Assembly (NCBI RefSeq): GCF_014204975.1
Contig: NZ_JACHMM010000001.1
Coordinates: 5,432,037 to 5,456,036 of the forward strand
Origin: Jiangella mangrovi
GTDB taxonomy: Bacteria > Actinomycetota > Actinomycetes > Jiangellales > Jiangellaceae
Reading direction: 5' to 3'
Length of the DNA: 24,000 nucleotides
In this document: in pieces, positions 9,448 to 22,076 of the stretch
How positions within the stretch are numbered: the stretch's first letter is position 1
Layout: each line of letters begins with the position of its first letter
The notes under the pieces: model-generated
Told to the model about the DNA's origin: nothing
Database searches by the model: none
The model's input: the letters and a program-made list of their open reading frames with translations, nothing else
Translations under genes and position numbers: made by a program

Positions 9448-10410
9448 TCAGCTCGTTTCGATGACCTGACGCTCCCCGATGCGCACGGTCGCGGTGGTGG
9501 CGGGGTCCGGTGGGTCGAGCGTTCCTTCGGCCCCGGTGGACGCGGTCCACGTGGCGGCCCAGTTCGCGGTCGCGGTGACGGTGTAGGCGCTGCTGGTCTG
9601 CGTGTAGGCGTGGCCGCAGCTCGGTGATGGACGGACGCCGAGGCTCGGCTCGTAGGGTGTGCCGGGTTCTTCGCACGTGACGGTAGTGCCGTCGCCCATG
9701 TCCCACGCGACGTGGTCGACCTCGGCCGTGACGGTGACCGTGACGCCGCCGACCGTAGCTGATTCCTCTCGTGGTCCCCAGGTCGTCGGGCCGGCGTTCG
9801 TCACCCACATCCACACGGGCGCGCCCACGAGTCCGATGCTCTGTGGATCGGTCTCGAGCGGGCGCGGCGCGAGCCCCACCTCGAGCGGCTCGAAACTCAT
9901 GCCATCGAGGATCTGCTGAGCAACCTCCTCCGGATCGACCACGATCACCGGTGTTTCGCCCGGCGCCTCGGCGAGCCACATGTATCCGTGGTCGCCCCAG
10001 TGGATGCCTCCTGCTACACCCGCCAGCTTGCGCCACTCAAACATCCAGCCCTCTGCCGGATCACCGGTCCAGTAGCCGAGGTGGCTCAACGTCCCATCCG
10101 GCGGCCGGTGAAGCTCGTTCTCGGCGGGCGACAACCGCTTCAGATATCGATCGAGTGCATCGCTAAATTCGTAGCCCGCGATTGTGCAAGGTGCTGGAAC
10201 CACCTGCGGATCGTCCTGACTGCAATGAGTCAGATACGCATCGTCGTCGGTGTCCTCATCGGTGGGAGGTTCCTCGTAAACACAACCTGAACCATTGAAG
10301 TAGGTGCCCGGAGGGCATCCGTTCGCCCTCGGCGCGTCCGACGATTCGGAGGGCTCGGCTGGCGCGGCCAGCGCCATCCCCAACGCGAGAGCCCACGCTG
10401 CTGCTAGCAA
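9448..10410 (-). CDS. Secreted hypothetical protein with a C-terminal PKD-like (WDMGDG...CGHAY) domain
   Basis: The ORF runs 9448..10506. ATG 10506 would overlap the upstream gene by 103 nt, so I favour in-frame TTG 10410, which gives a 7-nt overlap; the start remains uncertain. The hydrophobic leader is LLAAAWALALGMALAAPA. The N-terminal region is Cys-rich. The C-terminus (VAWDMGDGTTVTCEEPGTPY...CGHAYTQTSSAYTVTATANW) resembles the PKD-domain signature. Confidence 0.6.
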   Translation of the reverse strand: MLAAAWALALGMALAAPAEPSESSDAPRANGCPPGTYFNGSGCVYEEPPTDEDTDDDAYLTHCSQDDPQVVPAPCTIAGYEFSDALDRYLKRLSPAENELHRPPDGTLSHLGYWTGDPAEGWMFEWRKLAGVAGGIHWGDHGYMWLAEAPGETPVIVVDPEEVAQQILDGMSFEPLEVGLAPRPLETDPQSIGLVGAPVWMWVTNAGPTTWGPREESATVGGVTVTVTAEVDHVAWDMGDGTTVTCEEPGTPYEPSLGVRPSPSCGHAYTQTSSAYTVTATANWAATWTASTGAEGTLDPPDPATTATVRIGERQVIETS

Positions 10411-11042
10411 GGCTCGTTCCGCGTCAACTCGATCGATTGCACCCTCCAGCCTGCACGTTGCGTGCCACCGGTCTCCGACTCGTGATGGAGCCAAGTCATC
10501 GCCCATTGCTGGTAGAGGTCTGGCTCGAATGTGAGGTCGGCCTCCCCGCCGTCATACGTCACGAATTTGAGCGCCGTCAAATCAAGGCACGCCGAAGAGG
10601 TCGCGCTGGCAGGGCTAGTGCCGTCCGCGTCCGATGAGAGATCGCCCACCGCATGAGTTCGAATCGCAGTCGCGGCCCGTTGCTCCATCGCGGAGTTCCG
10701 CCACGCGGCCACCCAATTGGTCAGCTCTAGATTCGCTTGCCCTTCGACAGGCCAGGTGCCCACCAAGTCCGCGTTCCAGGTGCTCTCCGCAGCGTCTCGG
10801 TAGTCGCTGGCGTTGATCTTGAAGGCGTCCCAGGAAGCGACCAGGTCTTCGAAGGTCGCCTTGATCTCGGCCTCGGCCTCTTCCTCCGGCGTGAGGGCCG
10901 GTGGCGCGGTGACCGCAGGCTCCGTCGTCGCCGGCGAAGGAGGCGGCTCGGGGTCCGAGTCCCCACCGCAGGCAGCCAGGGCAGCCACGGCGACCACACC
11001 GAGCACCGCCACCATCGCCGTCGCGCGACGCCTTGCGAACAT
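10404..11042 (-). CDS. Lipoprotein, function unknown
   Basis: Internal ATG 11042 is preceded by gggagg (reverse complement of 11049-11054). It gives MFARRRATAMVAVLGVVAVAALAACGGDSD, a classic lipoprotein signal with lipobox LAAC, followed by a Pro/Glu-rich linker. The longer listed ORF (to 11156) adds an implausible N-terminus. Confidence 0.7.
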   Translation of the reverse strand: MFARRRATAMVAVLGVVAVAALAACGGDSDPEPPPSPATTEPAVTAPPALTPEEEAEAEIKATFEDLVASWDAFKINASDYRDAAESTWNADLVGTWPVEGQANLELTNWVAAWRNSAMEQRAATAIRTHAVGDLSSDADGTSPASATSSACLDLTALKFVTYDGGEADLTFEPDLYQQWAMTWLHHESETGGTQRAGWRVQSIELTRNEPC

Positions 11043-11173
11043 CCCGAGAACCTCCCACACCCTGAACCGAGCCGATGATCTTACGCACTCACCGCAACCC
11101 CTCCTGTCATCTATAGGTGCTTTCCCGACCCCAAACGTGACAGCCACCGCTGGCAAGACCGTATGACGATGGA

Positions 11174-11179
11174 TAAGAT
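11174..11179 (+). promoter_or_regulatory. Possible -10 hexamer (TAAGAT) for a leaderless transcript of the toxin-antitoxin operon
   Basis: taagat at 11174-11179 ends 7 nt before the A of ATG 11186. No Shine-Dalgarno is visible between them (gctggt). The -35 is poor (tggcaa, 17-nt spacer). Confidence 0.3.
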
Positions 11180-11185
11180 GCTGGT

Positions 11186-11431
11186 ATGGCCAAGGAGAAG
11201 ATGACCGTCACCCTCGATCCGTCGACCCTGGCCGACATCGACGCGGACGCGCGGCAGGCGGGGTTGAACCGCTCGGAGTTCGTCGAGCGGGCGCTGCGGC
11301 GCGAGCACTACCGCCGCCTCCTCGCACAGGCAGGTCGCCCCCCGCACAGCCCAAGCAGCCAGAACGACCAGAGCCACCAGAGCGACCAGCAGCTGCGTGA
11401 CCTCCTCGCCTGGCAGCGCAACCCGTCGTGA
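11186..11431 (+). CDS. Ribbon-helix-helix (CopG/MetJ-type) antitoxin
   Basis: 81 aa. MTVTLDPSTLADIDADARQAGLNRSEFVERALRRE is a typical RHH beta-strand plus two helices. Its stop overlaps the next start (GTGA at 11428-11431). Confidence 0.7.
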   Translation: MAKEKMTVTLDPSTLADIDADARQAGLNRSEFVERALRREHYRRLLAQAGRPPHSPSSQNDQSHQSDQQLRDLLAWQRNPS

Positions 11432-11712
11432 ATCCGGGTGAGATCTGGCGGCTCGAGGACGGGTCGCTACGGATCGTGCTGAGCAACGCGATCTACAACA
11501 CCAGCCAACTGAACCAGGTGATCACCGCGGTCGTCGGCCCGCCGCCGGAGCAGTTCGAGCCGTTCGCCGTCGCCACCGATGCGGGCACGATCTTCGCCGA
11601 CCGCGTCGCCATGCATCCGCGGCACTGGCTCACCCAGCACGTTGCCACCATCAGCGTCCGCCAGCTCGCCGACACCCGCCGGCACCTCACCTTCCTCCTG
11701 CACGACGACTGA
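11428..11712 (+). CDS. MazF/PemK-like toxin (putative endoribonuclease) of a type II TA pair
   Basis: 94 aa with GTG 11428. The N-terminal PGEIWRL...LRIVLSN pattern resembles the GD(I/V)W...VV(S/T) opening of PemK/MazF-fold toxins. The gene is small and translationally coupled to an RHH gene. Fold assignment is tentative. Confidence 0.5.
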   Translation: MNPGEIWRLEDGSLRIVLSNAIYNTSQLNQVITAVVGPPPEQFEPFAVATDAGTIFADRVAMHPRHWLTQHVATISVRQLADTRRHLTFLLHDD

Positions 11713-11901
11713 CGACGCCTGACGGCAACCGGCGACTCATCGACGATGGCGCCAGCCTCCGGTTCGCGCCGATAAATCCGTTGCGCCCTTCGCGCAAGCC
11801 GAGCAGCATTGTCGTCATGCAGCGCATCGTGAATCCCACGCGGAAACCAGGCCGTCAACGCCTGGCGATGCGGCTGCCCCTGAGCAGCAGGGCGATGCGT
11901 A

Positions 11902-11998
11902 GGCGAGGGCTACTTCGGATTCGTATGTTCTGGGTTCGAATCCCAGCGGTCTGCGGACCGTAGCTCAATCCGGAAGAGCGACGAACTGTTCCTTCGCC
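11902..11998 (+). ncRNA. yrlA: YrlA-type bacterial Y RNA: circularly permuted tRNA-like module. True 5'/3' transcript ends are not determined.
   Basis: Read directly from the sequence:
- anticodon-like stem ttcgt 11920-11924 pairs with acgaa 11981-11985
- variable region atgtt 11925-11929
- T-arm ctggg 11930-11934 / ttcgaat 11935-11941 / cccag 11942-11946
- acceptor-like hairpin cggtc 11947-11951 / tgcg / gaccg 11956-11960
- ta 11961-11962, equivalent to U8-A9
- D-arm gctc 11963-11966 / aatccggaa / gagc 11976-11979
- g 11980, equivalent to position 26
- closing helix ggcgagg 11902-11908 with cc(t)tcgcc 11991-11998
It lies 160 nt upstream of the TROVE/Ro60 gene on the same strand. Confidence 0.75.
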
Positions 11999-12011
11999 GC
12001 CTCTTGTTCTC

Positions 12012-12080
12012 GCCCTGGTCCCATCTCGCCGATGCGAAGAGCCGGGTTACTTCTTTCGGGTAGAAGCGGCCGACCAGGCC
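12012..12080 (+). ncRNA. Stem-loop with a CCUGGUC/GACCAGG helix: possible Ro-binding stem or a second Y-RNA-like module
   Basis: cctggtc 12014-12020 pairs with gaccagg 12072-12078. Inside it, gccg 12041-12044 pairs with cggc 12067-12070, and cttct 12050-12054 pairs with agaag 12062-12066 around the loop ttcgggt. A 20-nt unpaired 5' segment is left over (12021-12040). The CUGGUCC string resembles the conserved 5' strand of metazoan Y RNA stems. The fold was made by hand and is not unique. Confidence 0.35.
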
Positions 12081-12157
12081 AGCGACTTGGCTCACTCGAG
12101 TTCTCGGCAGCGTCATGACCGACGATCAGCGACCCCGCCCGGAAGGAGGGCATCCCC

Positions 12158-13735
12158 ATGAGCAAGTTCGACCGCGCCAGCAAGGCCGCCGCCATGCTGA
12201 CGAGCCCGGTCCGGGCGCTCCGCAACGCCCGCAGCCGCACCGTCACCCACGAAGGCGCGCCCGCCCTCGTCCGCGACACGAAGGGTGAGCTGTTCCTCCT
12301 GGCCGTCACCAACCTGGCCGGCGAGGACACCTTCTATGAGGACGGCGACACCCGCGACGAGCGGTTCCGCACGCTCGTCCACGCGGCCACCGCCGAGGAC
12401 CCCGAGTGGGTCGCGCGCCTCGTTTCCTGGCTTCGGACCACCGCGAACCTGCGTTCGGCGCCGGTTGTCGCGGCGGTGGAGTACGTGCGCGCCGGCGGGC
12501 CGCACGGACGCCGGGTGGTCGACGGCGCGTTGCTGCGGGCGGACGAGCCGGCCGAGGTGCTCGCCTACTACACGTCGCGGTACGGACGCGCGTTGCCGCA
12601 GCCGATCAAGCGGGGCGTCGCCGACGCCGCGCGCCGGCTGTACACCGAGCGGGCGGCGCTGAAGTACGACGGCGTCTCGCGCGCCTGGCGTATGGCCGAC
12701 GTCCTCGAGCTGTGCCACGTGCGGCCACGCGACGACGCGCAGTCGGCGTTGTTCCGCTGGCTGCTCGACCGCCGGCACGGCCGCGCCGACACCGTCGTTC
12801 CGGCAGACCGGTTGCCCGTCGTCCACGCGAACACGCAGCTCAACGCCGTCCCCCAGAACGAGCGCAGGCAGCACCTCCGCACCACGGCGCTCGCCGACGC
12901 CGGACTCACCTGGGAGGCGCTCGCGGGCTGGCTCGGCGGGCCGATGGACCGGACGGCGTGGGAGGCGGTCATCCCGTCCATGGGCTACATGGCGCTGCTG
13001 CGCAACCTGCGCAACTTCGACGAGGCCGGGGTGAGCGACGCCGTCGCCGAGACGGTCGCCGCCAGGTTGGCCGACCCGGAGCAGGTGCGCCGCTCGCGGC
13101 AGTTCCCGTTCCGGTTCGTCGCCGCGTACCGCAACGCACCGTCGTTGCGGTGGGCGTACGCGCTGGACAAGGCGATCGGGACGGCGACGGCGAACGTGCC
13201 GGCCTTCGCGGGGCGCACGCTCGTGCTCGTCGACACGTCGGCGTCGATGACGCAGCGGGCGTTCTCGCAGCGGTCGTCGATGTCGCCGGTCGAGGCCGCC
13301 GCGGTGTTCGGGGTCGCGCTGGCCAAGCGGGGCAACGCCGTCGACCTGTACGGGTTCGCCGACGGCGTGTTCGCGCACTGGATCGCGCGCAGGACATCGC
13401 TGCTGACGGAGGCGGACCGGCTGGTCGGGCGGGTCGGCGAGGCCGGTCACGGCACGCGCATCGCCGAGGCGGTGCGCGCGACCTACCGCCGGCACGACCG
13501 CGTGGTGATCGTGACCGACATGCAGACCTTCCCGGACGGCGCCGGGCGCGGTGGCGACCCGGTCGCCGCCGTACCGGCAAAGGTCCCGGTCTACGGGTTC
13601 AACCTCGGCGGGTATCGCCCGACGGTGGTGGCCGCCGGCCGGGCGAACCGGCACGAGTTCGGCGGTCTCAACGACGCCACGTTCACCCTGCTCAGCCTGC
13701 TCGAGAACGGCCGCTCCGCCGGCTGGCCGTTCTAG
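12158..13735 (+). CDS. rsr: Ro60 ortholog: TROVE-domain plus von Willebrand A (vWA) domain protein (Rsr)
   Basis: 525 aa. ATG 12158 follows ggaaggaggg (12141-12150). The N-terminal roughly 350 aa is TROVE-like (LAVTNLAGEDTFYEDGDTRDERF..., WVARLVSWLRTTANLRSAPVVAAVEY, MGYMALLRNLRNFDEAGV). The C-terminal vWA has an intact MIDAS DxSxS (VDTSAS, codons 13232-13246). Confidence 0.9.
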   Translation: MSKFDRASKAAAMLTSPVRALRNARSRTVTHEGAPALVRDTKGELFLLAVTNLAGEDTFYEDGDTRDERFRTLVHAATAEDPEWVARLVSWLRTTANLRSAPVVAAVEYVRAGGPHGRRVVDGALLRADEPAEVLAYYTSRYGRALPQPIKRGVADAARRLYTERAALKYDGVSRAWRMADVLELCHVRPRDDAQSALFRWLLDRRHGRADTVVPADRLPVVHANTQLNAVPQNERRQHLRTTALADAGLTWEALAGWLGGPMDRTAWEAVIPSMGYMALLRNLRNFDEAGVSDAVAETVAARLADPEQVRRSRQFPFRFVAAYRNAPSLRWAYALDKAIGTATANVPAFAGRTLVLVDTSASMTQRAFSQRSSMSPVEAAAVFGVALAKRGNAVDLYGFADGVFAHWIARRTSLLTEADRLVGRVGEAGHGTRIAEAVRATYRRHDRVVIVTDMQTFPDGAGRGGDPVAAVPAKVPVYGFNLGGYRPTVVAAGRANRHEFGGLNDATFTLLSLLENGRSAGWPF

Positions 13736-15115: not shown

Positions 15116-17023
15116 ATGGGCCGGCTCCTGCTGGTGGCCCGGTTGGCCGCCCGTGATCTACGACGGCGTCCGGCTGAGGCCGCGCTGCTCCTGCTCGCCA
15201 TCGTCGCCGCGACGACGACGCTGACGCTCGGCCTGGTGATGCACGGCATCGCCGGCGACCCCTACCAGCGCACCCGCGAGGCGACGGCCGGGCCCGACAT
15301 CGTCGCCAGCATGATGCAGAACCCGTTCACCGGCGAGGGTGCCGACCCCGCCCAGCTCGAGGAGCTCACCGCCGCCGACGGTGTCACGGCCAGCAGCGGC
15401 CCGTTCCGGGTCGCGGCGACCAGCATCGAGGTCGACGGCCGCACGGCCGACGTGCAGGCCGTCGGGCGGCCGGTCGAGCCTGTCGCCGTCGACCAGCCGG
15501 CCGTCGTCGACGGCGAGTGGCTCGGCACGGACGGCGATGACGGCGTGGTCGTCGAGGCCGCCTTCGCGGAGGAACTCGGCATCGAGGCCGGCGACACCGT
15601 CACGCTGGGCGGCGAGTCCGTCGAGGTCGCAGGCATCGCCGTCACCGCCGCGATGACGCCGTACCCGTGGGCGAGCTGCCTCGTCCCGTGCGCTCCCGGC
15701 CCCTCCGGCGACGAGGGCGAGCAGGCCGCAGTCGAGCCCGGCGGCGATCCCGAGGCCGCGGGCGCGGGCGTCACCGGCCCGCCGGCGTGGGAGAACACCG
15801 TCACCGACCCCGGTCTGATCTGGGTTCCCGAGGCCGACGTCGCCGCCCTCGCCGCCGAGCCCGACGCCGTCTCCCACGTCGTGTACCTCCAACTGGCCGA
15901 CCCGGACAGCGCCCAGGCGTTCGCCGATGCCCGCATGCCCGACGGCCCGAGCATCGAGGACGTGCCCTGGCTGGAGCCGTGGCAGCACATCGTCGAGCAG
16001 GTCACGCACATCGAGCGCAACGCGCAGCGGGTCCTGCTCACCGGCGGCTGGCTGCTCGGCGTTCTGGCCGTGGCCGGCATTGCCGTCCTGGTCGGCGGGC
16101 GCATGGCGGACCAGACGCGGCGGGTCGGACTGCTGAAGGCGGTCGGCGGCACGCCCGGGCTGGTCGCCGCCGTCCTGCTCGCCGAGTACCTCCTCGTCGC
16201 CCTCGTCGCGGCCGCGACCGGGCTGGTCGCCGGGCGTCTGGTGGCGCCGGCGATCACCGACCGGACACTGGGCCTCATCGGCGGCGCGGGCACCCCATCG
16301 CTCACCGTCGGCACCATCGCGACGGTGACGGCGATCGCGCTGGGTGTCGCCGTGCTCGCGACCTTCATCCCCGCGATCCGCGCGGCCCGCACCAGCACCG
16401 TCGCCGCCCTGAACGAGTCCGCCCGGCCGCCCCGCCGGGTCGGCTGGCTGGTCGCGCTCTCGGCCCGGCTGCCGGTGGTGCTGCTCATCGCGCTGCGGGT
16501 GGCCGGACGGCGACCGCGGCGGTTCGTGCTCAGCATCGCGAGCATCACCGTCACCGTCAGCGGCATCGTCGCGGCGATGGGAGCGAACGCGCAGCTCAGG
16601 TCCAACCTGGCCCAGGACCCCGACGCCCGTATGGAGCGGCTGGGCGACGTGCTGCTGGTCATCACCATCACGCTGATCGCGATGGCCGCCGTCAACGCCA
16701 TCGTCGCGACCTGGGCGACCGTCCTCGACTCACGGCACGCATCCGCGGTCACCCGGGCGCTCGGTGCCACGCCGGCGCAGCTCAGCGCGGGCCTGTCGCT
16801 CGCGCAGGTGCTGCCGGCATTCGTGGGCGCCCTGCTGGGCGTCGGCGGCGGGCTGGCCCTCTACGCGGCGGTCGATCCCGACGAGGTCCCCATGCCGCCG
16901 ATCTGGTGGCTGGTCGCGCTGGTCCCCGGCCTCGTGATCGTGGTCGCGATACTGACGCTGGTTCCGGCGCGCCTCGCCGCCCGCCGTCCGGTCGCCCCGA
17001 TCCTGCAGGCGGAGACCGCCTGA
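15116..17023 (+). CDS. FtsX-family ABC transporter permease (MacB-type, two FtsX modules)
   Basis: 635 aa, starting 6 nt after the ATPase stop. It has the N-terminal ARDLRRRPAEAALLLLAIV TM segment typical of FtsX/MacB permeases, a large extracytoplasmic segment, and then clustered TM helices twice. Confidence 0.85.
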   Translation: MGRLLLVARLAARDLRRRPAEAALLLLAIVAATTTLTLGLVMHGIAGDPYQRTREATAGPDIVASMMQNPFTGEGADPAQLEELTAADGVTASSGPFRVAATSIEVDGRTADVQAVGRPVEPVAVDQPAVVDGEWLGTDGDDGVVVEAAFAEELGIEAGDTVTLGGESVEVAGIAVTAAMTPYPWASCLVPCAPGPSGDEGEQAAVEPGGDPEAAGAGVTGPPAWENTVTDPGLIWVPEADVAALAAEPDAVSHVVYLQLADPDSAQAFADARMPDGPSIEDVPWLEPWQHIVEQVTHIERNAQRVLLTGGWLLGVLAVAGIAVLVGGRMADQTRRVGLLKAVGGTPGLVAAVLLAEYLLVALVAAATGLVAGRLVAPAITDRTLGLIGGAGTPSLTVGTIATVTAIALGVAVLATFIPAIRAARTSTVAALNESARPPRRVGWLVALSARLPVVLLIALRVAGRRPRRFVLSIASITVTVSGIVAAMGANAQLRSNLAQDPDARMERLGDVLLVITITLIAMAAVNAIVATWATVLDSRHASAVTRALGATPAQLSAGLSLAQVLPAFVGALLGVGGGLALYAAVDPDEVPMPPIWWLVALVPGLVIVVAILTLVPARLAARRPVAPILQAETA

Positions 17024-17030
17024 CGCGGTG

Positions 17031-17054
17031 GGCCCGGTCGGGTCTGGCCGGGCC
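17031..17054. terminator. GC hairpin between convergent genes
   Basis: ggcccgg 17031-17037 pairs with ccgggcc 17048-17054 around a 10-nt loop. It starts 8 nt after the permease stop. There is no U-tract. Confidence 0.3.
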
Positions 17055-17127
17055 TGCCGCTCCTGATGCGCGTCGTGGGCGAGTTGCTGCTGCCAGAGCG
17101 GTAGTGACCCGCCCTCGACACGCGACC

Positions 17128-17514
17128 TCAGCCGACGACGTCGCCGAGCACCGCCCGCGCGGCGTCCCGATTGTCGACGCACAGCACACCGACGAACTGG
17201 GCGTCCGAGACGCGCACCGGCAGGAACACCTCGACATTCACCCCGGCCTCGGCGAGCTTGCGGAACGTGGCCGCCCCCGCTCCGGGAGCGTTCTTCAGGC
17301 GGACGGTCAGCGCGTCCCGCTCCTGGGCATCAAACCCGGCGTCCTGCAGCGCGGTCCGTGCCGCCGACTCGTCATCGGCGATGAACGCGACCGTGCCGGT
17401 CTCGCCGTGCGCGAGTCCGCAGATCACGAGATTGATGCCGCGCGCCGCAATGACCTCGCACAACTCGGCGAGCCGCCCCGGCTGGTTCTCGAACTCGACG
17501 GTGAAGGCGCCCAT
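17128..17514 (-). CDS. ACT-domain protein (two tandem ACT-like repeats)
   Basis: I prefer ATG 17514 (MGAFTVEFENQPGRLAELCEVIAARGINL...), which has AGGAGG 8 nt upstream (reverse complement of 17524-17529). The listed ORF starts at GTG 17523. The beta-alpha-beta-beta-alpha-beta ACT pattern occurs twice. Confidence 0.75.
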   Translation of the reverse strand: MGAFTVEFENQPGRLAELCEVIAARGINLVICGLAHGETGTVAFIADDESAARTALQDAGFDAQERDALTVRLKNAPGAGAATFRKLAEAGVNVEVFLPVRVSDAQFVGVLCVDNRDAARAVLGDVVG

Positions 17515-17845
17515 GGCGCTCACCTCCTAGGAACAGGAGTCCTCGCTGCTCAACCTACTCCCGTAAGCCGCGCCTGACCCGACCGAGCCGCTGACCCATG
17601 CGACGACGGCTCCCATGTGGGGAGAGCGAGATCTACCTGCGGGGTGTCGGCGCACGCGCTGATGACGGCATGCCGGATGGCCCTTTGGTGGGGCGCACTC
17701 TGCGTCACTCGCGGCGAAATGACGCATCTGCAGGGGCGCGACGCGACGCGAAGCAGGTTAATCCGACCCGTCACCGATGATGCGGCCCTGCCCTGCCCCG
17801 GCGCTAGTGTCACCCCATGACACGAGGCGACGGGAGGCCGGCGAC

Positions 17846-18529
17846 GTGACCCCAGATCAATGGACCCCAGATCACGTTCGTCGGCAGGTCATGCGGCAGG
17901 CTCGATACGCACTGAACGTCTCAGTGCTCGACGAGAATCGGGTCCCACCCGAGGGCCCGTTCGATGTTGCTCTGACAAACGGACTCCTCGCCATCGTCGC
18001 GGCGATCGATCCCGCGGCCGTGATCGACAAGAGGGGCTTCACCCTTCCGGCTAGCGTCCTGCTGCCCAAGGCCGTCGCGCTCGGCCTCAGCGTCAACCAG
18101 GCGACGTTAGCGGAGGGGCTCGATCTGACCCAGCCGCTGCGACATGGCCGAGCCGATGACGAGTGGATTCAACTCGGATCGAAGCACCTCACAGCTCTGC
18201 GTGAACTTGACGAGTTCGACGGCCTCGAAGTGCTTCACCACGTTGGAGCCCACCGAACGGTGGACGACATGATGGTGACGCTGTTCTACGAGAAGGCACG
18301 GGCTTACGCGGAACGGGACGTTCGCCGAGTCAAGGATCTGCTCGATGTGATGGACCCGGAGGAGTGCAACGAGTGTTTCCGGCGCACCTTCGTTCCGCTC
18401 GGCTACGACAACAGCGGCGGCACGATGACAGTCGGGCTGTGCATCGCCTGCGGGCACCAGCGCGACGAAGACACTGCGTGGGGCATGTACATGGCAGAGC
18501 AGTGGGAGTTGAGATGGCAGCACGAGTGA
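17846..18529 (+). CDS. Hypothetical protein with a C-terminal CxxC...CxxC zinc ribbon
   Basis: GTG 17846 is in frame and follows gggagg (17832-17837) by 8 nt, giving 227 aa. I recognise no family. The C-terminus has CNEC, then 23 residues, then CIAC. G+C is lower than in the flanks. Confidence 0.65.
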   Translation: MTPDQWTPDHVRRQVMRQARYALNVSVLDENRVPPEGPFDVALTNGLLAIVAAIDPAAVIDKRGFTLPASVLLPKAVALGLSVNQATLAEGLDLTQPLRHGRADDEWIQLGSKHLTALRELDEFDGLEVLHHVGAHRTVDDMMVTLFYEKARAYAERDVRRVKDLLDVMDPEECNECFRRTFVPLGYDNSGGTMTVGLCIACGHQRDEDTAWGMYMAEQWELRWQHE

Positions 18530-18757
18530 CCTCGAGCTGCAGTGCAGACAACCTTCACCACGCCTGGGAAGAGTCCACCGCCAAGGCGGCGAAATGACAC
18601 GGGCGGACATGGTGGTTCAGCGAACGCGGACGCAAGCGGCGGGGTGAATTGAATCTGGCTTCACCCAAGAGGCAGTGCATTCGTGCCGTGAATCGGTTCG
18701 CCGGTGTTGTGTCGTGGGTGTCTGCCACCCTGGGTTCCCATTGAAAGGGGTCGACGC

Positions 18758-18970
18758 ATGCCTAGATACTGCGTGAACAGGAACGCCCAGCCGAATGGCG
18801 ACCACGAGGTCCACGACGTCTCGGCCAACAAATGGTGCCTGCCTACATCCGCCAACCGGGTGGACCTCGGGCACCACGAGACCTGCTCCCCTGCCGTGCA
18901 GGCCGCCAAGATCCACTTCAGCCAGGTGAACAGCTGTCGTTGGTGCGCCCCGGCCTGCCACACGAGCTAG
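18758..18970 (+). CDS. 70-aa Cys/His-rich small protein (MPRYCVNRNAQPNGDHEVH...CRWCAPACHTS), function unknown
   Basis: ATG 18758 follows gaaagggg (18743-18750) by 7 nt. It has six Cys (5, 27, 43, 60, 63, 67) and six His (16, 19, 39, 40, 53, 68). I believe I have seen the N-terminal YxVNxNAQxNGDHEVH and C-terminal CxxCxxxCHT pattern in small hypothetical proteins from unrelated bacteria, but I cannot name a family. Confidence 0.65.
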   Translation: MPRYCVNRNAQPNGDHEVHDVSANKWCLPTSANRVDLGHHETCSPAVQAAKIHFSQVNSCRWCAPACHTS

Positions 18971-19437
18971 AGCGTGTCTGATAAATGTCGGGTCCAGGAG
19001 ATGACGGCGTTGAGGACGACGGCGGCGCGGTAGACGATGGCGAGCTTGTCGAACCGGGTAGCCAGTCCTCGCCACTGTTTGAGCTGGTTGAAGGAGCGTT
19101 CGACGACGTTGCGGCCTCGGTAGTCGTCCGGGTCGAACGCCGGTGGGCGTCCGCCGCGTGAGCCGCGTCGTTTGCGGTGCCCGGCCTGGTCGGCGGGTTC
19201 GGGGATCACGGCCTTGATGCCGCGGGCGCGCAGGTGGGCGCGGATCGCGCGAGACGAGTACGCCTTGTCCCCGCGCAGCGCGTCGGGCCGGGTCCTGGGC
19301 CGCCCGGCCGGGCGCGCCACTTGCAGGTGCCCCAGCAGCGGCAGCAATGCCGGCGAGTCGCCGGCCTGGCCGGCGCTGAGCGCGATCACCAACGGCAGTC
19401 CGTGCCCGTCGACGAGCTGGTGGACCTTGGTCGACAT
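18967..19437 (-). CDS. IS5-family transposase, DDE catalytic part (orfB), +1 frame relative to orfA
   Basis: This frame is open upstream of the listed ATG and reads ...EPPDHGLGRSRGGMSTKVHQLVDGHGLPL..., the family-typical GRSRGG(L)TTK(V/I)H. It contains GDKAYSS and NVVERSFNQLKQWRGLATRFDK (DDE region). Its TAG stop is the complement of the junction CTAG. Confidence 0.85.
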   Translation of the reverse strand: MSTKVHQLVDGHGLPLVIALSAGQAGDSPALLPLLGHLQVARPAGRPRTRPDALRGDKAYSSRAIRAHLRARGIKAVIPEPADQAGHRKRRGSRGGRPPAFDPDDYRGRNVVERSFNQLKQWRGLATRFDKLAIVYRAAVVLNAVISWTRHLSDTL

Positions 19438-19909
19438 CCCGCCGCGGGAGCGGCCCAGACCGTGGTCAGGCGGCTCGCTGGTCGAGAACGTGTAACTCGA
19501 CCCAGCCCCCCGCGAGGCGTTTCATGTTCGTGGCGTGTTGATGAGCCCGAGCGATCGTGGAATCCACCGACACCGACCAGCCCAGCTGCCCAGCCTGGTC
19601 CGCTGCCGCGGTCAACCGGGCCAGCACCGCGTCCCAGGTGCCGTCGCCGGCCAGGCGCCGATGCCATGTCCACACCGTCTGCCACGGCCCAAACACGCCC
19701 GGCAGGTCCCGCCAGGCGATCCCACACCGATACCGGTACACGATCGCCTCCACCATCGCCCGCGCGTCGGAGAACGGGCGCCCCCGCCGACCCGTACGAG
19801 CCGGAAGAAGATCAGCGATCAACGCCCACTGCGCATCAGAGAGCAACTGAAACCGAGACACGACCCCGAGCATCCCCGACACGATCCCGGAACTTTGTCA
19901 GACACGCTC
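18970..19909 (-). mobile_element. IS5-family insertion sequence (IS427-like subgroup), about 0.94 kb, inserted in a CTAG
   Basis: The terminal inverted repeats are left gagcgtgtctgataaatgtc and right (reverse complement) gagcgtgtctgacaaagttc. The first 12 of 12 bases match, and 16 of 20 overall. CTAG is present at both junctions (18967-18970 and 19909-19912). The duplication is therefore TA or CTAG, and the ends are ambiguous by 1 nt. It carries two overlapping transposase ORFs. Confidence 0.9.
19466..19882 (-). CDS. IS5-family transposase, N-terminal part (orfA)
   Basis: 138 aa. FQLLSDAQWALIADLLP...RGRPFSDARAMVEAIVYRYRCGIAWRDLP...WQTVWTWHRRLAGDGTWD is the conserved N-terminal domain of IS5/IS427-type transposases. 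Confidence 0.85.
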   Translation of the reverse strand: MSGMLGVVSRFQLLSDAQWALIADLLPARTGRRGRPFSDARAMVEAIVYRYRCGIAWRDLPGVFGPWQTVWTWHRRLAGDGTWDAVLARLTAAADQAGQLGWSVSVDSTIARAHQHATNMKRLAGGWVELHVLDQRAA

Positions 19910-20111
19910 TAGCTGTCGCGGCTCTTGGTGGACAGAGTCGCCACGGGCTCGAGTCCGCATCCGAGCCAGCCGTGTACGCGGCGGTAAGACACAAGTCGGA
20001 TCAAGGGGGTCACCTGAACGTGCAACAGACCCCTGCCCGTCCGTGCCCGAACGCGCTATGGGCGAGCGCGCCGTCCTCGAAGGTCCCCGACTGAGTCGTG
20101 CGCCGCCTAGC

Positions 20112-21854
20112 ATGAGCGCACATAGCCAGGTCTTGGAGGTTGGGTTGAAAGCCGCAGGCGTGGACTACTCGAAGTTGGGTCCGCTGAGGGAAGCCCTCAC
20201 TGAAGCCGCCCGGACGGACGAGTCGAACGCAGAGCGTGCCGTTGAGCGGTTCGTTGAACTTCGACCCGGACACGCGGACACGCTGAAAGCCCGCCAGCAC
20301 CACCTGATCTCCGGGCGACGTGGAACCGGAAAGTCCACGCTCCTCCACGTTGTACGTGTTCATCTCCGTGAGTCGGGCGCGCAGGTCGCAGTGATCGACA
20401 TGGAGAAGTTCAAGAACCGACCGTTCCCGGATGTCCTGATCGAGATCCTCATCAAACTCCTGGACGAAATCCGACCTAGCGTGCACCTCGGCAGGTCTCT
20501 CATGGGTGACCTTCGACTTCGCCGCCAGTTCAAGGCGACTCGTCGTGAACTCAGCCAGATGCTCAACGACCCGCAGGCATGGAACAAGCAGATGACTCGC
20601 TCGAGACAGCGGAGCAAGTCGTCGAACGTCTCCGGCAAGGGCAGTTTCCGCGCAAGCCACCACGGGGCCGGCGCAGAGGCCGGTGGCGAGGCCGCCCGTA
20701 CAACACGTGCTGCGGATTCGATGACAGAAACCGCTGCTTTTGAAGAGGCGAAGATCGAGCGCCTACAACAGCTGGCAAGTCGACTGTCCGACGAGCTCAC
20801 AACCCTGGTGCGACAATCTGCTGGCGACCGGGCTGCGGTATTCATCGATGACTTCTACTACGTCAGGCTCGCGGACCAGCCCGAGGTTCTCGACTACCTC
20901 AAGACCGTCGCGAAGGGCACCGGGATCTGGCTCAAGGTCGGCGGCGTGGGCGAGCGCATGCGACCGTTCAGAGACGGGGACCCAGCGATCGGCATGCAGC
21001 CCAATCAAGACATCCACCCCCTACCGATCGATGTCACCCTTGACGACTTCGGAACAGCTCAGCGCTTCCTCGAGCGGATGCTCGACGGGGTGATCCAGCC
21101 ACTTGGCTTGACTACCGCTCAACTCTTCACCGAGACGGCCCGCAGCCGAATGGTGCTTGCTTGCGGCGGTGCAGTAGCTCGCGACTACATCACCCTCACT
21201 GGGAGCGCACTTGATGCCGCTGTCGAGCGGTTGAACAAGAAGCAAGCTCCATCACTGTCGACCTTGGTCAACATCCAGGCCGAGGACGTCAATTCCGCCG
21301 CAAGTCGGCGCATGAACAAGAAGGAAGACGAGGAACTGAACCTCGATGCGGGTGACGACGCTTCGCGGCTGCGGGAGCGGTGGCGCGACATCTGCGACTT
21401 CGTACGCGAACAAGGCGATACTGCCTTCGTCCTCATCCGCCAGAAGGATCTTGATGAAGGCTCATGGGGCAGCGAGATTCGCCAGCTTGAGAACTTGCGA
21501 CTGCTCCATCGGATCCGCGAAACCGTGCCGAACACACCGAACTGGCGCGGAGTCAAATGTGTCGTCTACATGGTCGATCTTGGCCAACTCACGGTCAAGC
21601 GGCTGCAAAAGGGTATCCCCGCGTTCTGGGAGCGGACGAGCGACTTCGACCGGTTGCGACGGGCCGAGTGGGTATACGGACCCGAGTGGAGAACCAAGCT
21701 CCAGGTCGCGCCCAAACCGACGCGGACGATCGCGGGCACGTCGGCGTCGGAGTCGGAGTTGGAGTCGGAGGAGCCGGCCATTCCCATGCTCTTCGACGAC
21801 CCAGCGGAGCTTGACGAGCTCGAAGGCGGTGCTGGTGGGGCGACTGGGACTTGA
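20112..21854 (+). CDS. P-loop NTPase with widely separated Walker A and B motifs, an AAA+-like lid, a probable winged helix and an acidic tail; family unknown
   Basis: The ORF is 20043..21854. I favour ATG 20112, where G+C drops, but the starts at 20043 and 20058 cannot be excluded, and no clear SD is present for any of them. Walker A is GRRGTGKST (20313-20339). Walker B is AAVFIDD (20832-20852). ACGGAVARDYITLTGSALDAAVE resembles an ORC/Cdc6-type lid. The C-terminus is SESELESEEPAIPMLFDDPAELDELEGG. Confidence 0.7.
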   Translation: MSAHSQVLEVGLKAAGVDYSKLGPLREALTEAARTDESNAERAVERFVELRPGHADTLKARQHHLISGRRGTGKSTLLHVVRVHLRESGAQVAVIDMEKFKNRPFPDVLIEILIKLLDEIRPSVHLGRSLMGDLRLRRQFKATRRELSQMLNDPQAWNKQMTRSRQRSKSSNVSGKGSFRASHHGAGAEAGGEAARTTRAADSMTETAAFEEAKIERLQQLASRLSDELTTLVRQSAGDRAAVFIDDFYYVRLADQPEVLDYLKTVAKGTGIWLKVGGVGERMRPFRDGDPAIGMQPNQDIHPLPIDVTLDDFGTAQRFLERMLDGVIQPLGLTTAQLFTETARSRMVLACGGAVARDYITLTGSALDAAVERLNKKQAPSLSTLVNIQAEDVNSAASRRMNKKEDEELNLDAGDDASRLRERWRDICDFVREQGDTAFVLIRQKDLDEGSWGSEIRQLENLRLLHRIRETVPNTPNWRGVKCVVYMVDLGQLTVKRLQKGIPAFWERTSDFDRLRRAEWVYGPEWRTKLQVAPKPTRTIAGTSASESELESEEPAIPMLFDDPAELDELEGGAGGATGT

Positions 21855-22076
21855 AGCCAGGCGTGGGGCACATGAGTCTTTGGGAAACGGACGGTGGAAG
21901 GGACGATCGCACACTCGCATCGCAGAGATCCGACCTGCCGAACTCCGCTCGCCGAGGCGCGACTCGACGGACGTCTCGGCTGCGGGATCGACGTAGCCCA
22001 TTATGGGCGGAAAGACGTCGTGGAGTGCCTACATTCCCCTTGAGCTGCGATGATCCCGAGCCGCAGCCCAGCTCGG

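What the first reader, a model, noticed from the sequence alone, without database searches (positions are those of the whole stretch)
11902..11998. Circularly permuted tRNA mimic (YrlA-type Y RNA) hidden in the gap upstream of the Ro60 gene
The plus strand can be laid onto the tRNA cloverleaf position by position, but in permuted order:
- 3' anticodon-stem strand (ttcgt, 11920-24)
- 5-nt variable loop
- canonical T-arm with T-loop TTCGAAT (11930-46)
- acceptor stem closed into a 5-bp hairpin by a UNCG-type tetraloop UGCG (11947-60)
- U8-A9 (ta)
- D-arm GCUC/AAUCCGGAA/GAGC, with the GG that normally docks on the T-loop (11963-79)
- G26
- 5' anticodon-stem strand (acgaa, 11981-85)

A further helix, 11902-08 with 11991-98, with one bulged U, closes the domain.

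This is the architecture reported for bacterial YrlA RNAs. Those RNAs bind the Ro60 ortholog Rsr and tether it to exoribonucleases, and their genes lie next to rsr. Here rsr starts 160 nt downstream on the same strand, with no intervening terminator that I can see.

tRNA scanners will reject this sequence or call a pseudo-tRNA, and protein annotators will leave the gap empty. Actinobacterial examples are sparsely characterised.
Basis: partly seen in the sequence, partly recalled or inferred. Interest (0 to 1): 0.8.

Follow-up and report, generated by a model that had tools for sequence, protein, structure and literature searches.

The report
YrlA Y RNA beside Ro60 gene
The gap upstream of this actinobacterial Ro60 (rsr) gene encodes a tRNA-mimicking YrlA-type Y RNA, followed by a second, shorter Y RNA; this is a well-supported new example of an RNA class described in 2014, not a new kind of element.

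Summary
Rfam's YrlA model matches 11900-12006 full length (50.3 bits, E 2e-10), but below its gathering score of 69, so standard annotation stays silent.

A covariance model built only from YrlAs of other genera hits 11891-12014 at 99.8 bits (E 3e-22). On 40 homologues, 96% of cells pair and 25 of 33 pairs show changes on both sides. The tRNA Levitt pair 15:48 covaries without exception: G:C 22 times, A:U 15 times.

- The RNA is longer, about 11888-12017.
- The likely Rsr-binding bulged helix (GGCGA-U-G / C-UCGCC) lies outside the reported coordinates.
- A second Y RNA of YrlB type sits at 12028-12108, between YrlA and rsr.
- A conserved, structured leader and a putative promoter lie upstream.

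The YrlA, YrlB, rsr order matches Mycobacterium smegmatis, where both RNAs were shown to bind Rsr (Chen et al. 2014). So actinobacterial examples are already characterised.

Verdict: a new member of a known kind, of modest interest.

The parts
11781..11809 (+). Putative promoter: -35 TTGCGC (11781-86), 17-nt spacer, -10 CAGCAT (11804-09). Inferred only.
   Evidence: In 5 Jiangella-like loci the -35 region is 70% invariant and the -10 to start-site region 93% invariant, while the spacer between them is only 18% invariant. The consensus promoter scan did not call it.
11819..11877 (+). Conserved structured leader. A long helix (GCAGC-GCAUCG 11819-29 with CGAUGC-G-GCUGC 11866-77) closes two hairpins (11834-44 and 11847-65). 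It contains a third copy of GGCGAUGCG at 11864-72. Function unknown.
   Evidence: 68% invariant in 5 loci, with no indels. The same fold is predicted for the window and L001. There is one compensatory A-U to G-C change in hairpin 11849/11863. Two G-to-A changes weaken the long helix in L040 and L041 unless the register shifts.
11888..12017 (+). YrlA-type Y RNA, full predicted extent (ends not mapped).
   Evidence: Model R1 hit 11891-12014, 99.8 bits, E 3.2e-22. Rfam YrlA hit 11900-12006, 50.3 bits, E 2.2e-10. The basal helix extends to C11888-G12017 and is invariant in 5 Jiangella-like loci.
11888..11897 (+). P1 5' strand, with the motif GGCGAUG (11891-97) and bulged U11896. Presumed Rsr-binding site; a one-base variant of the published GNCGAAN0-1G motif.
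   Evidence: P1 is 98.8% paired in 40 homologues. Three of its pairs show changes on both sides, and the G-C pair after the bulge (G11897-C12009) is invariant. The motif is described in PMC4201824.
12009..12017 (+). P1 3' strand (C-UCGCCCUG), within the conserved GUUCUCG 3' motif.
11902..11909 (+). P2 5' strand (GGCGAGGG). It pairs with 11991-11998 (CCUUCGCC) and includes the conserved G11907·U11993 wobble.
   Evidence: 94.7% paired in 40 sequences, with 7 of 8 pairs showing changes on both sides. 73% paired on the structure-blind MAFFT alignment.
11991..11998 (+). P2 3' strand.
11910..11919 (+). Conserved CUAC (the YUAY motif, 11910-13) followed by UUCGGA. This is the 5' side of the internal loop between P2 and the tRNA-like domain.
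   Evidence: The UAC/UCC-UU core of YUACUU is conserved in alignments A1 and A3. YUAY and its UA kink are described in PMC4201824 and 10.1101/312249.
11920..11924 (+). Anticodon-stem-like helix, 3'-strand equivalent (UUCGU). It pairs with 11981-85 (ACGAA).
   Evidence: All 5 pairs show changes on both sides and 90.8% of cells pair on the MAFFT alignment. Within Jiangella the window has UUCGU/ACGAA and J. alba has AUUGC/GCAAU.
11925..11929 (+). 5-nt variable loop AUGUU (G46 and U48 equivalents).
   Evidence: U48 pairs with A15 (A11968). The 15:48 pair is G:C 22 times and A:U 15 times, with 0 exceptions in 37 cores.
11930..11946 (+). T arm: CUGGG-UUCGAAU-CCCAG.
   Evidence: 100% paired, with 3 of 5 pairs showing changes on both sides in 40 sequences.
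11947..11960 (+). Acceptor-stem-like hairpin: 5 bp closed by a UGCG tetraloop, with no free CCA end.
   Evidence: 98% paired, with 4 of 5 pairs showing changes on both sides. The stem is 5 canonical pairs here and about 7 to 10 in other genera (that script also counted the G·U-like closing positions of the loop).
11961..11980 (+). U8-A9 equivalents (11961-62); D arm GCUC-AAUCCGGAA-GAGC (11963-79) with A14, A15, G18, G19 and A21 equivalents; G26 equivalent (11980).
   Evidence: The D stem is 100% paired. It is invariant within the window's subtype and covaries in other subtypes, which carry GACC/GGUC or GUCU/GGAC.
11981..11985 (+). Anticodon-stem-like helix, 5'-strand equivalent (ACGAA).
12028..12108 (+). 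Second Y RNA, YrlB-like: it has the Rsr-binding module but no tRNA-like domain.
- P1: 12028-32/12104-08, bulged U12033, G12034-C12103.
- P2: 12039-46/12086-93.
- UUACUUC at 12047-53.
- Hairpins at 12050-66 and 12068-80.
   Evidence: R1 hit 29 bits, E 3.5e-5, matching only the P1 and P2 modules. The MFE fold gives these helices in both the window and L001. The 5' module is 88% invariant and the inner part only 24% invariant in 5 loci. In 13 short Y RNAs, P1 forms 6 of 6 pairs in 12 of them, and P2 forms 7 or 8 of 8 pairs in all 13, with very different sequences.
12141..12150 (+). Shine-Dalgarno sequence GGAAGGAGGG for rsr.
   Evidence: Read from the sequence. Conserved in 5 loci.
12158..13735 (+). 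rsr, a Ro60 ortholog (TROVE plus vWA), 525 aa.
   Evidence: Pfam TROVE, 59.7 bits. PDB TROVE proteins 9kop and 9l5y at E 1e-35, and Xenopus Ro60 1yvp at E 3e-5. phrog_850 at E 1.5e-53, full length. 81% identical to Jiangella endophytica.

Best explanation
Window 11888-12017 (+) encodes a YrlA-type bacterial Y RNA. It is followed by a second, shorter Y RNA of YrlB type at 12028-12108, and then by rsr at 12158-13735.

Architecture (shown by sequence and covariation):
- A basal bulged helix, P1, carries the conserved motif GGCGA-U-G / C-UCGCC.
- Above it sits an 8-bp helix, P2, with a conserved G·U pair.
- An internal loop follows, carrying the conserved CUAC motif.
- Then comes a tRNA-like domain entered through an anticodon-stem-like helix: a 5-nt variable loop, T arm, a closed 5-bp acceptor-like hairpin, U8-A9, D arm and G26.
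- The nucleotides needed for the tRNA L-shape are all present: U8, A14, A15:U48, G18G19, A21, G46, the T-loop and G53-C61.

Mechanism (inferred from the family, not shown here):
- The RNAs are most likely transcribed with rsr from a promoter near 11781-11809, as one precursor: leader, YrlA, YrlB, rsr.
- They are then cut out of that precursor, as in M. smegmatis.
- P1 and its 5' strand bind the Rsr ring.
- The RNA then acts as a gate on Rsr and as a tether to a partner. That partner is PNPase in Deinococcus and Salmonella.
- The tRNA-like domain is the effector and stabilising module. Its own partner is unknown in any species.
- With only a 5-bp acceptor stem closed by a UGCG tetraloop, this YrlA is not expected to be cut by RNase P, unlike the 7-bp M. 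smegmatis RNA.
For: Model matches:
- Rfam YrlA matches full length at E 2.2e-10.
- Model R1, built without the window or its closest relative, gives 99.8 bits, E 3.2e-22 at 11891-12014. YrlB is the only other credible hit in the 24 kb, on either strand.

Covariation:
- On the structure-blind MAFFT alignment of 13 sequences, 91.1% of cells pair, against 39-53% with slid partners. The covariation score is 0.51 against 0.08-0.16, and 0 of 500 shuffles reach it.
- On 40 sequences, 96.2% of cells pair and 25 of 33 pairs show changes on both sides.
- The Levitt pair 15:48 covaries perfectly in 37 cores.
- There are compensatory changes even among five Jiangella-like loci.

Genomic context:
- All 70 model hits in 36 sources are on the rsr strand.
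- Their position relative to rsr varies. They lie more than 1.5 kb upstream, inside tRNA arrays, in L002, L003 and L005. They lie downstream of rsr in L034. This argues for trans-acting RNAs.
- Conservation is segmental: RNA modules are conserved and the linkers between them are not.
- The downstream ORF is Ro60/TROVE.

Published precedent:
- YrlA and YrlB lie upstream of rsr in M. smegmatis, co-precipitate with Rsr and are processed from one precursor (PMC4201824).
- The crystal structure of the Salmonella YrlA tRNA-like domain is solved (10.1101/312249).
Against: - The Rfam score of 50.3 bits is below the curated gathering score of 69, and nothing is reported at gathering level.
- The thermodynamic fold alone does not recover the cloverleaf and is not better than shuffles (z = -1.08).
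- The 5' motif is GGCGAUG, not the published GNCGAAN0-1G.
- No expression, end-mapping or Rsr-binding data exist for this organism.
- The promoter is inferred from conservation only, and the consensus scan found none.
- The 40-sequence alignment was fitted to the model's structure, which inflates pair counts. The MAFFT result is the unbiased figure.
Confidence: 0.9

Rival explanations
1. The structures are purely cis-acting parts of the rsr mRNA 5' UTR, for example an autoregulatory Rsr-binding leader. They are never released as stable small RNAs.
For: There is no terminator between the RNAs and rsr. A conserved leader and the Shine-Dalgarno sequence lie on the same putative transcript. The leader carries a third copy of the Rsr-motif sequence.
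Against: Homologous Y RNAs occupy variable positions relative to rsr. They are embedded in tRNA arrays more than 1.5 kb upstream in some loci and lie downstream of rsr in L034. In M. smegmatis the same arrangement yields processed, Rsr-bound small RNAs (PMC4201824). The two roles are not mutually exclusive.
Confidence: 0.06
2. It is a decayed or rearranged tRNA gene: either a pseudogene, or a permuted tRNA gene that is processed into a working tRNA.
For: It has canonical T and D arms and all the tertiary-contact nucleotides. The Rfam tRNA model gives a weak match, 16.6 bits at 11954-12023. Relatives sit inside tRNA arrays.
Against: ARAGORN finds no tRNA. The acceptor stem is 5 bp, closed by a tetraloop, with no CCA and no anticodon loop. 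The permuted order is conserved across many genera with compensatory changes, and is always flanked by the Y-RNA P1/P2 module. Decay would not preserve this.
Confidence: 0.02
3. It is a chance resemblance in GC-rich intergenic DNA.
For: The MFE is no better than shuffled sequences.
Against: The leave-out model gives E 3e-22. None of 500 shuffles reaches the observed covariation. The element is conserved in five Jiangella-like loci while the flanking linkers diverge.
Confidence: 0.005

Closest known systems
Mycobacterium smegmatis YrlA and YrlB (Chen et al. 2014, PMC4201824)
   Same: Both are actinobacterial. The gene order is the same: YrlA, then a shorter YrlB, then rsr, all on one strand with no terminator between them. 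YrlA has the 5' Rsr motif plus T, acceptor-like and D arms.
   Different: M. smegmatis YrlA has a 7-bp acceptor stem, is cut by RNase P and gains CCA. The window's stem is 5 bp with a UGCG tetraloop, so cleavage is not expected. M. smegmatis YrlB has a possible T arm, and the window's YrlB has none. I did not have the M. smegmatis sequence to align directly.
Salmonella Typhimurium YrlA (Rfam RF02553; tRNA-like domain crystal structure PDB 6CU1, per 10.1101/312249)
   Same: Both are modular: an Rsr-binding stem plus a circularly permuted tRNA-like domain entered through the anticodon-like stem. They share the closed acceptor stem, the A15:U48-type Levitt pair, the conserved UA of YUAY, and U8A9.
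   Different: Only 50.3 bits to the Rfam model, and the model's 7-bp middle helix is not matched. The Salmonella genes lie 3' of rsr in an RtcR-controlled rsr-yrlBA-rtcBA operon; no rtcB or rtcA was seen among the window ORFs I scanned. Chen et al. recognised only the 5' strand of the Rsr motif in Salmonella and M. smegmatis. Here both strands are conserved and pair.
Deinococcus radiodurans Yrn1 and metazoan Y RNAs
   Same: Both have a basal bulged helix bound by Ro60/Rsr. The window's P1 (GGCGA-U-G / C-UCGCC) has the same helix-bulge-helix layout as the metazoan GGUCCGA helix. This comparison rests on the description in PMC4201824.
   Different: Yrn1 has a different orientation of its T- and D-like elements and evolved separately according to Chen et al. 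Metazoan Y RNAs lack a tRNA-like domain.
Circularly permuted tRNA genes (the red alga Cyanidioschyzon merolae) and two-piece permuted tmRNAs. From my own knowledge, not checked here.
   Same: The tRNA elements occur in permuted linear order.
   Different: Those are processed into functional, CCA-ended molecules. YrlA keeps a closed acceptor loop and is attached to a Ro-binding stem.

Membership tests
YrlA (Y RNA-like A; Chen et al. 2014; Rfam RF02553) | Encoded within about 4 kb of a Ro60/TROVE gene, on the same strand | tested here: met
   The 3' end of YrlA at 12017 lies 141 nt upstream of the rsr ATG at 12158, on the same strand.
YrlA (Y RNA-like A; Chen et al. 2014; Rfam RF02553) | T arm, closed acceptor-like stem-loop and D arm, in that 5'-to-3' order | tested here: met
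   The three elements lie at 11930-46, 11947-60 and 11963-79. The helices are supported by covariation.
YrlA (Y RNA-like A; Chen et al. 2014; Rfam RF02553) | Nucleotides for tRNA tertiary contacts: the UA linker, A14, the Levitt pair 15:48, GG in the D loop, and a pyrimidine at the end of the variable loop | tested here: met
   All are present by sequence. The 15:48 pair covaries, G:C 22 times and A:U 15 times with 0 exceptions. The three-dimensional fold itself was not tested.
YrlA (Y RNA-like A; Chen et al. 2014; Rfam RF02553) | GNCGAAN0-1G motif near the 5' end (presumed Rsr site) | tested here: inconclusive
   The window has GGCGAUG at 11891-97, one base off. Streptomyces relatives have GGCGAAG or CGCGAAG. 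The window's form is conserved in its clade and sits in a covarying bulged helix.
YrlA (Y RNA-like A; Chen et al. 2014; Rfam RF02553) | Conserved YUAY upstream of the T arm | tested here: met
   CUAC at 11910-13. The central U is invariant and the following base is A in most (C in L020 and L031) across alignments A1 and A3.
YrlA (Y RNA-like A; Chen et al. 2014; Rfam RF02553) | Score at or above Rfam's gathering threshold (69 bits) | tested here: not met
   The score is 50.3 bits, E 2.2e-10, and there is no hit at gathering level. None of 17 related actinobacterial loci reaches the threshold either. This points to limited model sensitivity for this clade, not a defect of this sequence.
YrlA (Y RNA-like A; Chen et al. 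2014; Rfam RF02553) | Expressed as a discrete RNA bound by Rsr, and modified by TruB or DusA | not testable with these tools
   No transcriptome or biochemical data are available.
YrlB-type short Y RNA (element at 12028-12108) | A second Rsr-bound RNA sharing the 5' motif, encoded between YrlA and rsr. Defined operationally in M. smegmatis and Salmonella; no sequence family exists. | tested here: met
   It has the same P1/P2 module and the UUACUUC motif. R1 scores it 29 bits, E 3.5e-5. It is conserved in 5 Jiangella-like loci. P2 covaries among 13 short Y RNAs. Rsr binding was not tested.
tRNA (RF00005) | Canonical cloverleaf order with an open acceptor stem and an anticodon loop | tested here: not met
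   ARAGORN genes. The Rfam tRNA model scores 16.6 bits against a threshold of 29.

The most novel reading that the evidence does not exclude
Two speculative readings are not excluded by the evidence.

1. In Jiangella-type loci the whole 11781-13735 stretch could be one self-regulating 'Ro operon'. The conserved structured leader (11819-77) holds a third copy of the Rsr-motif sequence locked in a duplex. It could serve as a processing or autoregulatory site for a precursor that yields two Y RNAs and the rsr mRNA.

2. Across actinobacteria, Y RNAs may form a modular family. One invariant Rsr-binding cassette (P1/P2 plus YUACUUC) would be combined with interchangeable effector domains: a full tRNA mimic with or without an anticodon-arm look-alike, a T arm only, or plain hairpins. 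These could arise inside tRNA gene arrays by fusion of neighbouring tRNA genes.
Probability: 0.15. Interest if true: 0.5.

Novelty: new member of a known kind. Interest (0 to 1): 0.25.

Why it matters
The practical value is for annotation.
- The Rfam YrlA model, at its curated threshold, misses this RNA.
- It also misses every YrlA in the 17 related actinobacterial rsr loci I scanned. So Y RNAs of Jiangella, Streptomyces, Micromonospora, Frankia-like and related genomes are probably going unannotated.
- The alignments made here (40 YrlAs and 13 short Y RNAs) could reseed the family.

There are three small biological additions.
- It adds a minimal-acceptor (5-bp, tetraloop-capped) YrlA variant.
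- In this clade both strands of the presumed Rsr-binding helix are conserved and covary.
- It adds another example of the paired YrlA/YrlB layout seen in M. smegmatis.

It does not change the understanding of what Y RNAs are. The open question, what the tRNA-like domain binds, remains open.

Tried and rejected
- **Single-sequence folding.** The MFE structure does not give the cloverleaf, and z = -1.08. This is uninformative for a tRNA-like RNA in GC-rich sequence, so I relied on comparative data.
- **Rfam at gathering threshold and ARAGORN.** Both were negative.
- **Promoter and terminator consensus scan.** It found nothing. The promoter proposal rests only on conservation.
- **Rfam's own alignment.** It places the 5' motif on GGCGAGG (11902-08) and leaves the model's middle helix unpaired. 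The clade-specific model shows the motif-bearing helix is really 11891-97/12009-14.
- **Regex-based boundary finding.** With G·U pairs allowed, it truncated several elements. I replaced it with covariance-model boundaries.
- **Metagenome pattern scan.** It returned 3 contigs with multi-Y-RNA loci, but none was close to Jiangella, so it gave no help on the leader.
- **Exact look-up of the window's Rsr protein.** Not on record. The window's genome is not identified; its nearest relatives are Jiangella species at 81% and a metagenome contig at 90%.
- **blastn of YrlA plus YrlB against phage and plasmid collections.** No match.
- **Alignment A6.** MAFFT misaligns the P2 3' strand where indels occur, so I did not use its P2 counts. 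My first YrlB P2 coordinates were one base off and were corrected to 12039-46/12086-93.
- **Supplementary tables of Chen et al. 2014.** They are not held, so I could not check whether a Jiangella YrlA was already listed.
Full report
**1. The observation**

- TTCGT 11920-24 is complementary to ACGAA 11981-85.
- The variable loop is ATGTT, 11925-29.
- The T arm is CTGGG-TTCGAAT-CCCAG, 11930-46.
- The acceptor-like hairpin is CGGTC-TGCG-GACCG, 11947-60.
- TA follows at 11961-62.
- The D arm is GCTC-AATCCGGAA-GAGC, 11963-79.
- G follows at 11980.
- GGCGAGG(G) 11902-09 is complementary to CCTTCGCC 11991-98.

ARAGORN finds no tRNA in the window. No intrinsic-terminator-like site lies between this region and the next gene. 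The next ORF, 12158-13735 (+), is a Ro60/Rsr ortholog:
- Pfam TROVE plus weak vWA domains.
- PDB TROVE proteins at E 1e-35, and Xenopus Ro60 at E 3e-5.
- PHROG 850 'RNA-binding protein' at E 1.5e-53 over the full length.

**2. Is it more than chance?**

A scan of the whole window against Rfam at gathering thresholds returns nothing. A permissive scan of 11650-12200 returns YrlA (RF02553) at 11900-12006 (+). The match covers model positions 1-114 of 114, at 50.3 bits and E 2.2e-10, against a gathering score of 69. Every other family is at E > 1.

Single-sequence folding is uninformative. The MFE does not form the cloverleaf and z = -1.08.

**3. Comparative evidence**

The Rsr protein retrieved 35 loci from reference genomes. 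Most are from Actinomycetota (for example Jiangella, Streptomyces, Micromonospora, Frankia-like, Catenulispora and Glycomyces); two are Chloroflexota MAGs. The closest is Jiangella endophytica at 81% identity.

A structural parse found 37 tRNA-like cores with the same order: T arm, closed acceptor hairpin, a linker dinucleotide (UA in most), D arm. Almost all lie just upstream of rsr. In those 37 cores the tRNA Levitt pair (second D-loop base with last variable-loop base) is G:C 22 times and A:U 15 times, with no exception. The window has A11968:U11929.

| Measure | Observed | Control |
|---|---|---|
| Cells forming a standard pair | 91.1% | 39-53% with partners slid 1-3 columns |
| Covariation score | 0.51 | 0.08-0.16 with slid partners |
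| Shuffles reaching the observed score | 0 of 500 | |

Per helix on the same alignment:
- The anticodon-like stem has changes on both sides in 5 of 5 pairs.
- The acceptor hairpin has them in 4 of 5 pairs.
- The T stem has them in 2 of 5 pairs.
- The basal helix is 100% paired, with 2 covarying pairs.
- The D stem is invariant.

I then built a covariance model (R1) from 12 such RNAs of other genera, deliberately leaving out the window and its closest relative. Results:
- R1 hits the window at 11891-12014 (+) with 99.8 bits, E 3.2e-22, full length, and no non-canonical pair.
- The only other credible hit in the 24 kb, on either strand, is 12028-12108 (+), at 29 bits and E 3.5e-5.
- Across all 36 sources, R1 finds 70 hits, all on the rsr strand.
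- On the 40 best hits, 96.2% of cells pair and 25 of 33 pairs have changes on both sides. The covariation score is 0.611 against at most 0.142 with slid partners. This alignment is fitted to the model, so the MAFFT figures above are the unbiased ones.

Four more Jiangella-like loci were recovered: L039, L040, L001 (J. endophytica) and L041 (J. alba), with Rsr 81-90% identical to the window's. They show compensatory changes even at short evolutionary range:
- The anticodon-like stem is UUCGU/ACGAA in the window and AUUGC/GCAAU in J. alba.
- A T-stem U-A pair becomes C-G.

**4. What is really there: corrected anatomy**

The RNA is longer than reported.

- **P1, the basal helix.** C11888-A11895 pairs with U12010-G12017. 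U11896 then bulges, and G11897 pairs with C12009. Its 5' strand, GGCGAUG (11891-97), is a one-base variant of the GNCGAAN0-1G motif that Chen et al. proposed as the Rsr-binding site (PMC4201824). In this clade the 3' strand (GUUCUCG) is also conserved and the outer pairs covary.
It is an internal 8-bp helix, 11902-09/11991-98.
- **Between P2 and the tRNA-like domain.** Here lies the conserved CUAC (11910-13). This is the YUAY motif of the family, whose UA forms the kink in the Salmonella crystal structure (10.1101/312249).

The presumed Rsr-binding module, which is what makes this a Y RNA, therefore lies outside the reported coordinates.

The 141 nt between YrlA and rsr are not empty. 12028-12108 is a second Y RNA:
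- It has the same module: GCCGA-U-G / C-UCGGC as P1, GAGCCGGG/CUUGGCUC as P2, and UUACUUC.
- Two small hairpins replace the tRNA-like domain.
- In five Jiangella-like loci its 5' module is 88% invariant, its interior only 24%, and the flanking linkers 17-45%.
- Thirteen such short Y RNAs in other loci keep P1 and P2 paired with very different P2 sequences.

**5. Comparison with what is known**

Chen et al. 2014 (PMC4201824) reported:
- YrlA-like RNAs occur near rsr in 254 bacteria and 22 phages. These include the actinobacteria Gordonia, Streptosporangium and Mycobacterium smegmatis, and mycobacteriophage ET08.
- In M. smegmatis, YrlA and a second RNA, YrlB, lie upstream of rsr.
- Both co-immunoprecipitate with Rsr and are processed from one precursor.

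Wang et al. (10.1101/312249) solved the Salmonella YrlA tRNA-like domain. [quoted passage not shown]

The window therefore reproduces a published architecture and a published gene order. The differences are:
- The Rfam score is below threshold. The same holds for every YrlA in 17 related loci, none of which reaches the gathering score.
- The motif is GGCGAUG rather than GNCGAA(N)G.
- The acceptor stem is minimal (5 bp with a UGCG tetraloop). By the argument of Chen et al., that makes RNase P cleavage unlikely.
- The YrlB has no T arm.

**6. Mechanism**

*Shown here:* sequence, secondary-structure and tertiary-pair conservation; co-orientation with rsr; segmental conservation.

*Inferred from the family:*
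- The RNAs are transcribed with rsr and cut out of a precursor.
- P1 and its 5' strand bind the Rsr ring.
- The Y RNA gates Rsr and tethers it to a partner, which is PNPase in Deinococcus and Salmonella.
- The tRNA-like domain stabilises the RNA and contacts an unidentified factor.

One rival reading, a purely cis-acting leader, is disfavoured because homologues sit at variable positions. They lie inside tRNA arrays more than 1.5 kb upstream of rsr in L002, L003 and L005, and downstream of rsr in L034. A second rival, that this is a tRNA pseudogene or a chance resemblance, is excluded by the covariation data.

**7. Upstream region**

The five Jiangella-like loci share a conservation pattern typical of a promoter:
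- The TTGCGC region (11781-86) is largely conserved (the 11778-86 block is 70% invariant).
- The 17-nt spacer is only 18% invariant.
- CAGCAT (11804-09) and the following bases are 93% invariant.

Next comes a 59-nt leader (11819-77) that is 68% invariant and free of indels. It folds into a long helix closing two hairpins. There is one compensatory change, but also two changes that weaken the long helix unless the register shifts. The leader contains a third GGCGAUGCG, base-paired to an upstream GCAUCG. Its role is unexplained.

**8. Verdict**

This is a new member of a known kind. Its main value is for annotation, because Rfam's threshold misses this clade, together with a few small structural variations.

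Noticed in passing
window 12028-12108 (+): A second, shorter Y RNA (YrlB-like) lies between YrlA and rsr. It has the same P1/P2/UUACUUC module, and two small hairpins replace the tRNA-like domain.
   Followed up: yes
window 11819-11877 (+), with a putative promoter at 11781-11809: A conserved structured leader lies upstream of YrlA: a long helix closing two hairpins. It carries a third copy of GGCGAUGCG (11864-72), base-paired to GCAUCG at 11824-29. The promoter-like conservation pattern is conserved hexamers with a diverged spacer. Its function is unknown, and only five sequences and one compensatory pair support the fold.
   Followed up: partly
window 11186-11431 (+) and 11428-11712 (+): A ribbon-helix-helix (CopG/antitoxin-like) ORF overlaps by 4 nt (GTGA) a 94-aa ORF with no family hit. 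The layout resembles a toxin-antitoxin pair. Both lie directly upstream of the Y RNA-rsr cassette in all five Jiangella-like loci and in none of the other loci. ORF94 is 87-98% identical across them, more conserved than Rsr at 81-90%.
   Followed up: partly
L002 about 890-2800; L003 about 970-2820; L005 about 555-2800; L034 about 990-2870: Some actinobacterial rsr loci carry arrays of roughly 12 to 21 tRNA genes immediately upstream of rsr. In L002, L003 and L005 a YrlA gene sits inside the array, between tRNA genes. I found no paper in the held library linking tRNA arrays with rsr or YrlA.
   Followed up: partly
L026 2423-2948; L021 and L022 2365-2973; L027 and L028 2445-2951; L036-L038: Many rsr loci encode three or four Y RNAs in tandem. 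They share one Rsr-binding module but have different inner domains: a full tRNA mimic, a T arm only, or plain hairpins.
   Followed up: partly
for example L005 998-1014, L010 2826-2842, L006 2839-2855 (16 of 37 YrlA cores): A YrlA subtype has a local hairpin just 5' of the variable loop, with a 5-bp stem and a 7-nt loop. The loop reads pyrimidine-U-NNN-purine-N in 16 of 16 cases, the anticodon-loop signature. These RNAs look like whole tRNAs permuted at position 26/27. Chen et al. call this hairpin the 'V arm'. The window belongs to the other subtype, which has a distal stem and no hairpin.
   Followed up: partly
L021 and L022 2365-2507; L027 2808-2936, L028 2824-2951, L029 2788-2915: Some YrlA copies replace the near-invariant GCUC/GAGC D stem with GACC/GGUC or GUCU/GGAC, and UA with UC at positions 8-9. 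This suggests copies modelled on different tRNAs.
   Followed up: no
17 related loci: None of the actinobacterial YrlAs in these loci reaches Rfam RF02553's gathering score. Two of them are instead called weak 'tRNA' hits at threshold (L027 2805-2876 and L021 2376-2432).
   Followed up: yes
window 17000-22000; ORF 20043-21854 (+): This is a lower-GC stretch, 62-70% against about 74% elsewhere. It contains a 603-aa AAA/STAND-like ATPase with weak PADLOC hits (mad8 at E 6e-7 and PtuA at E 3.5e-4), and could be a defence or mobile island.
   Followed up: no
window 10000-12000: GC content drops to 65% around the RHH/ORF94/Y RNA region. ORFs 9448-10506 (-) and 10404-11156 (-) have no Pfam family; the second has weak lipoprotein-like NCBIfam hits.
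   Followed up: no
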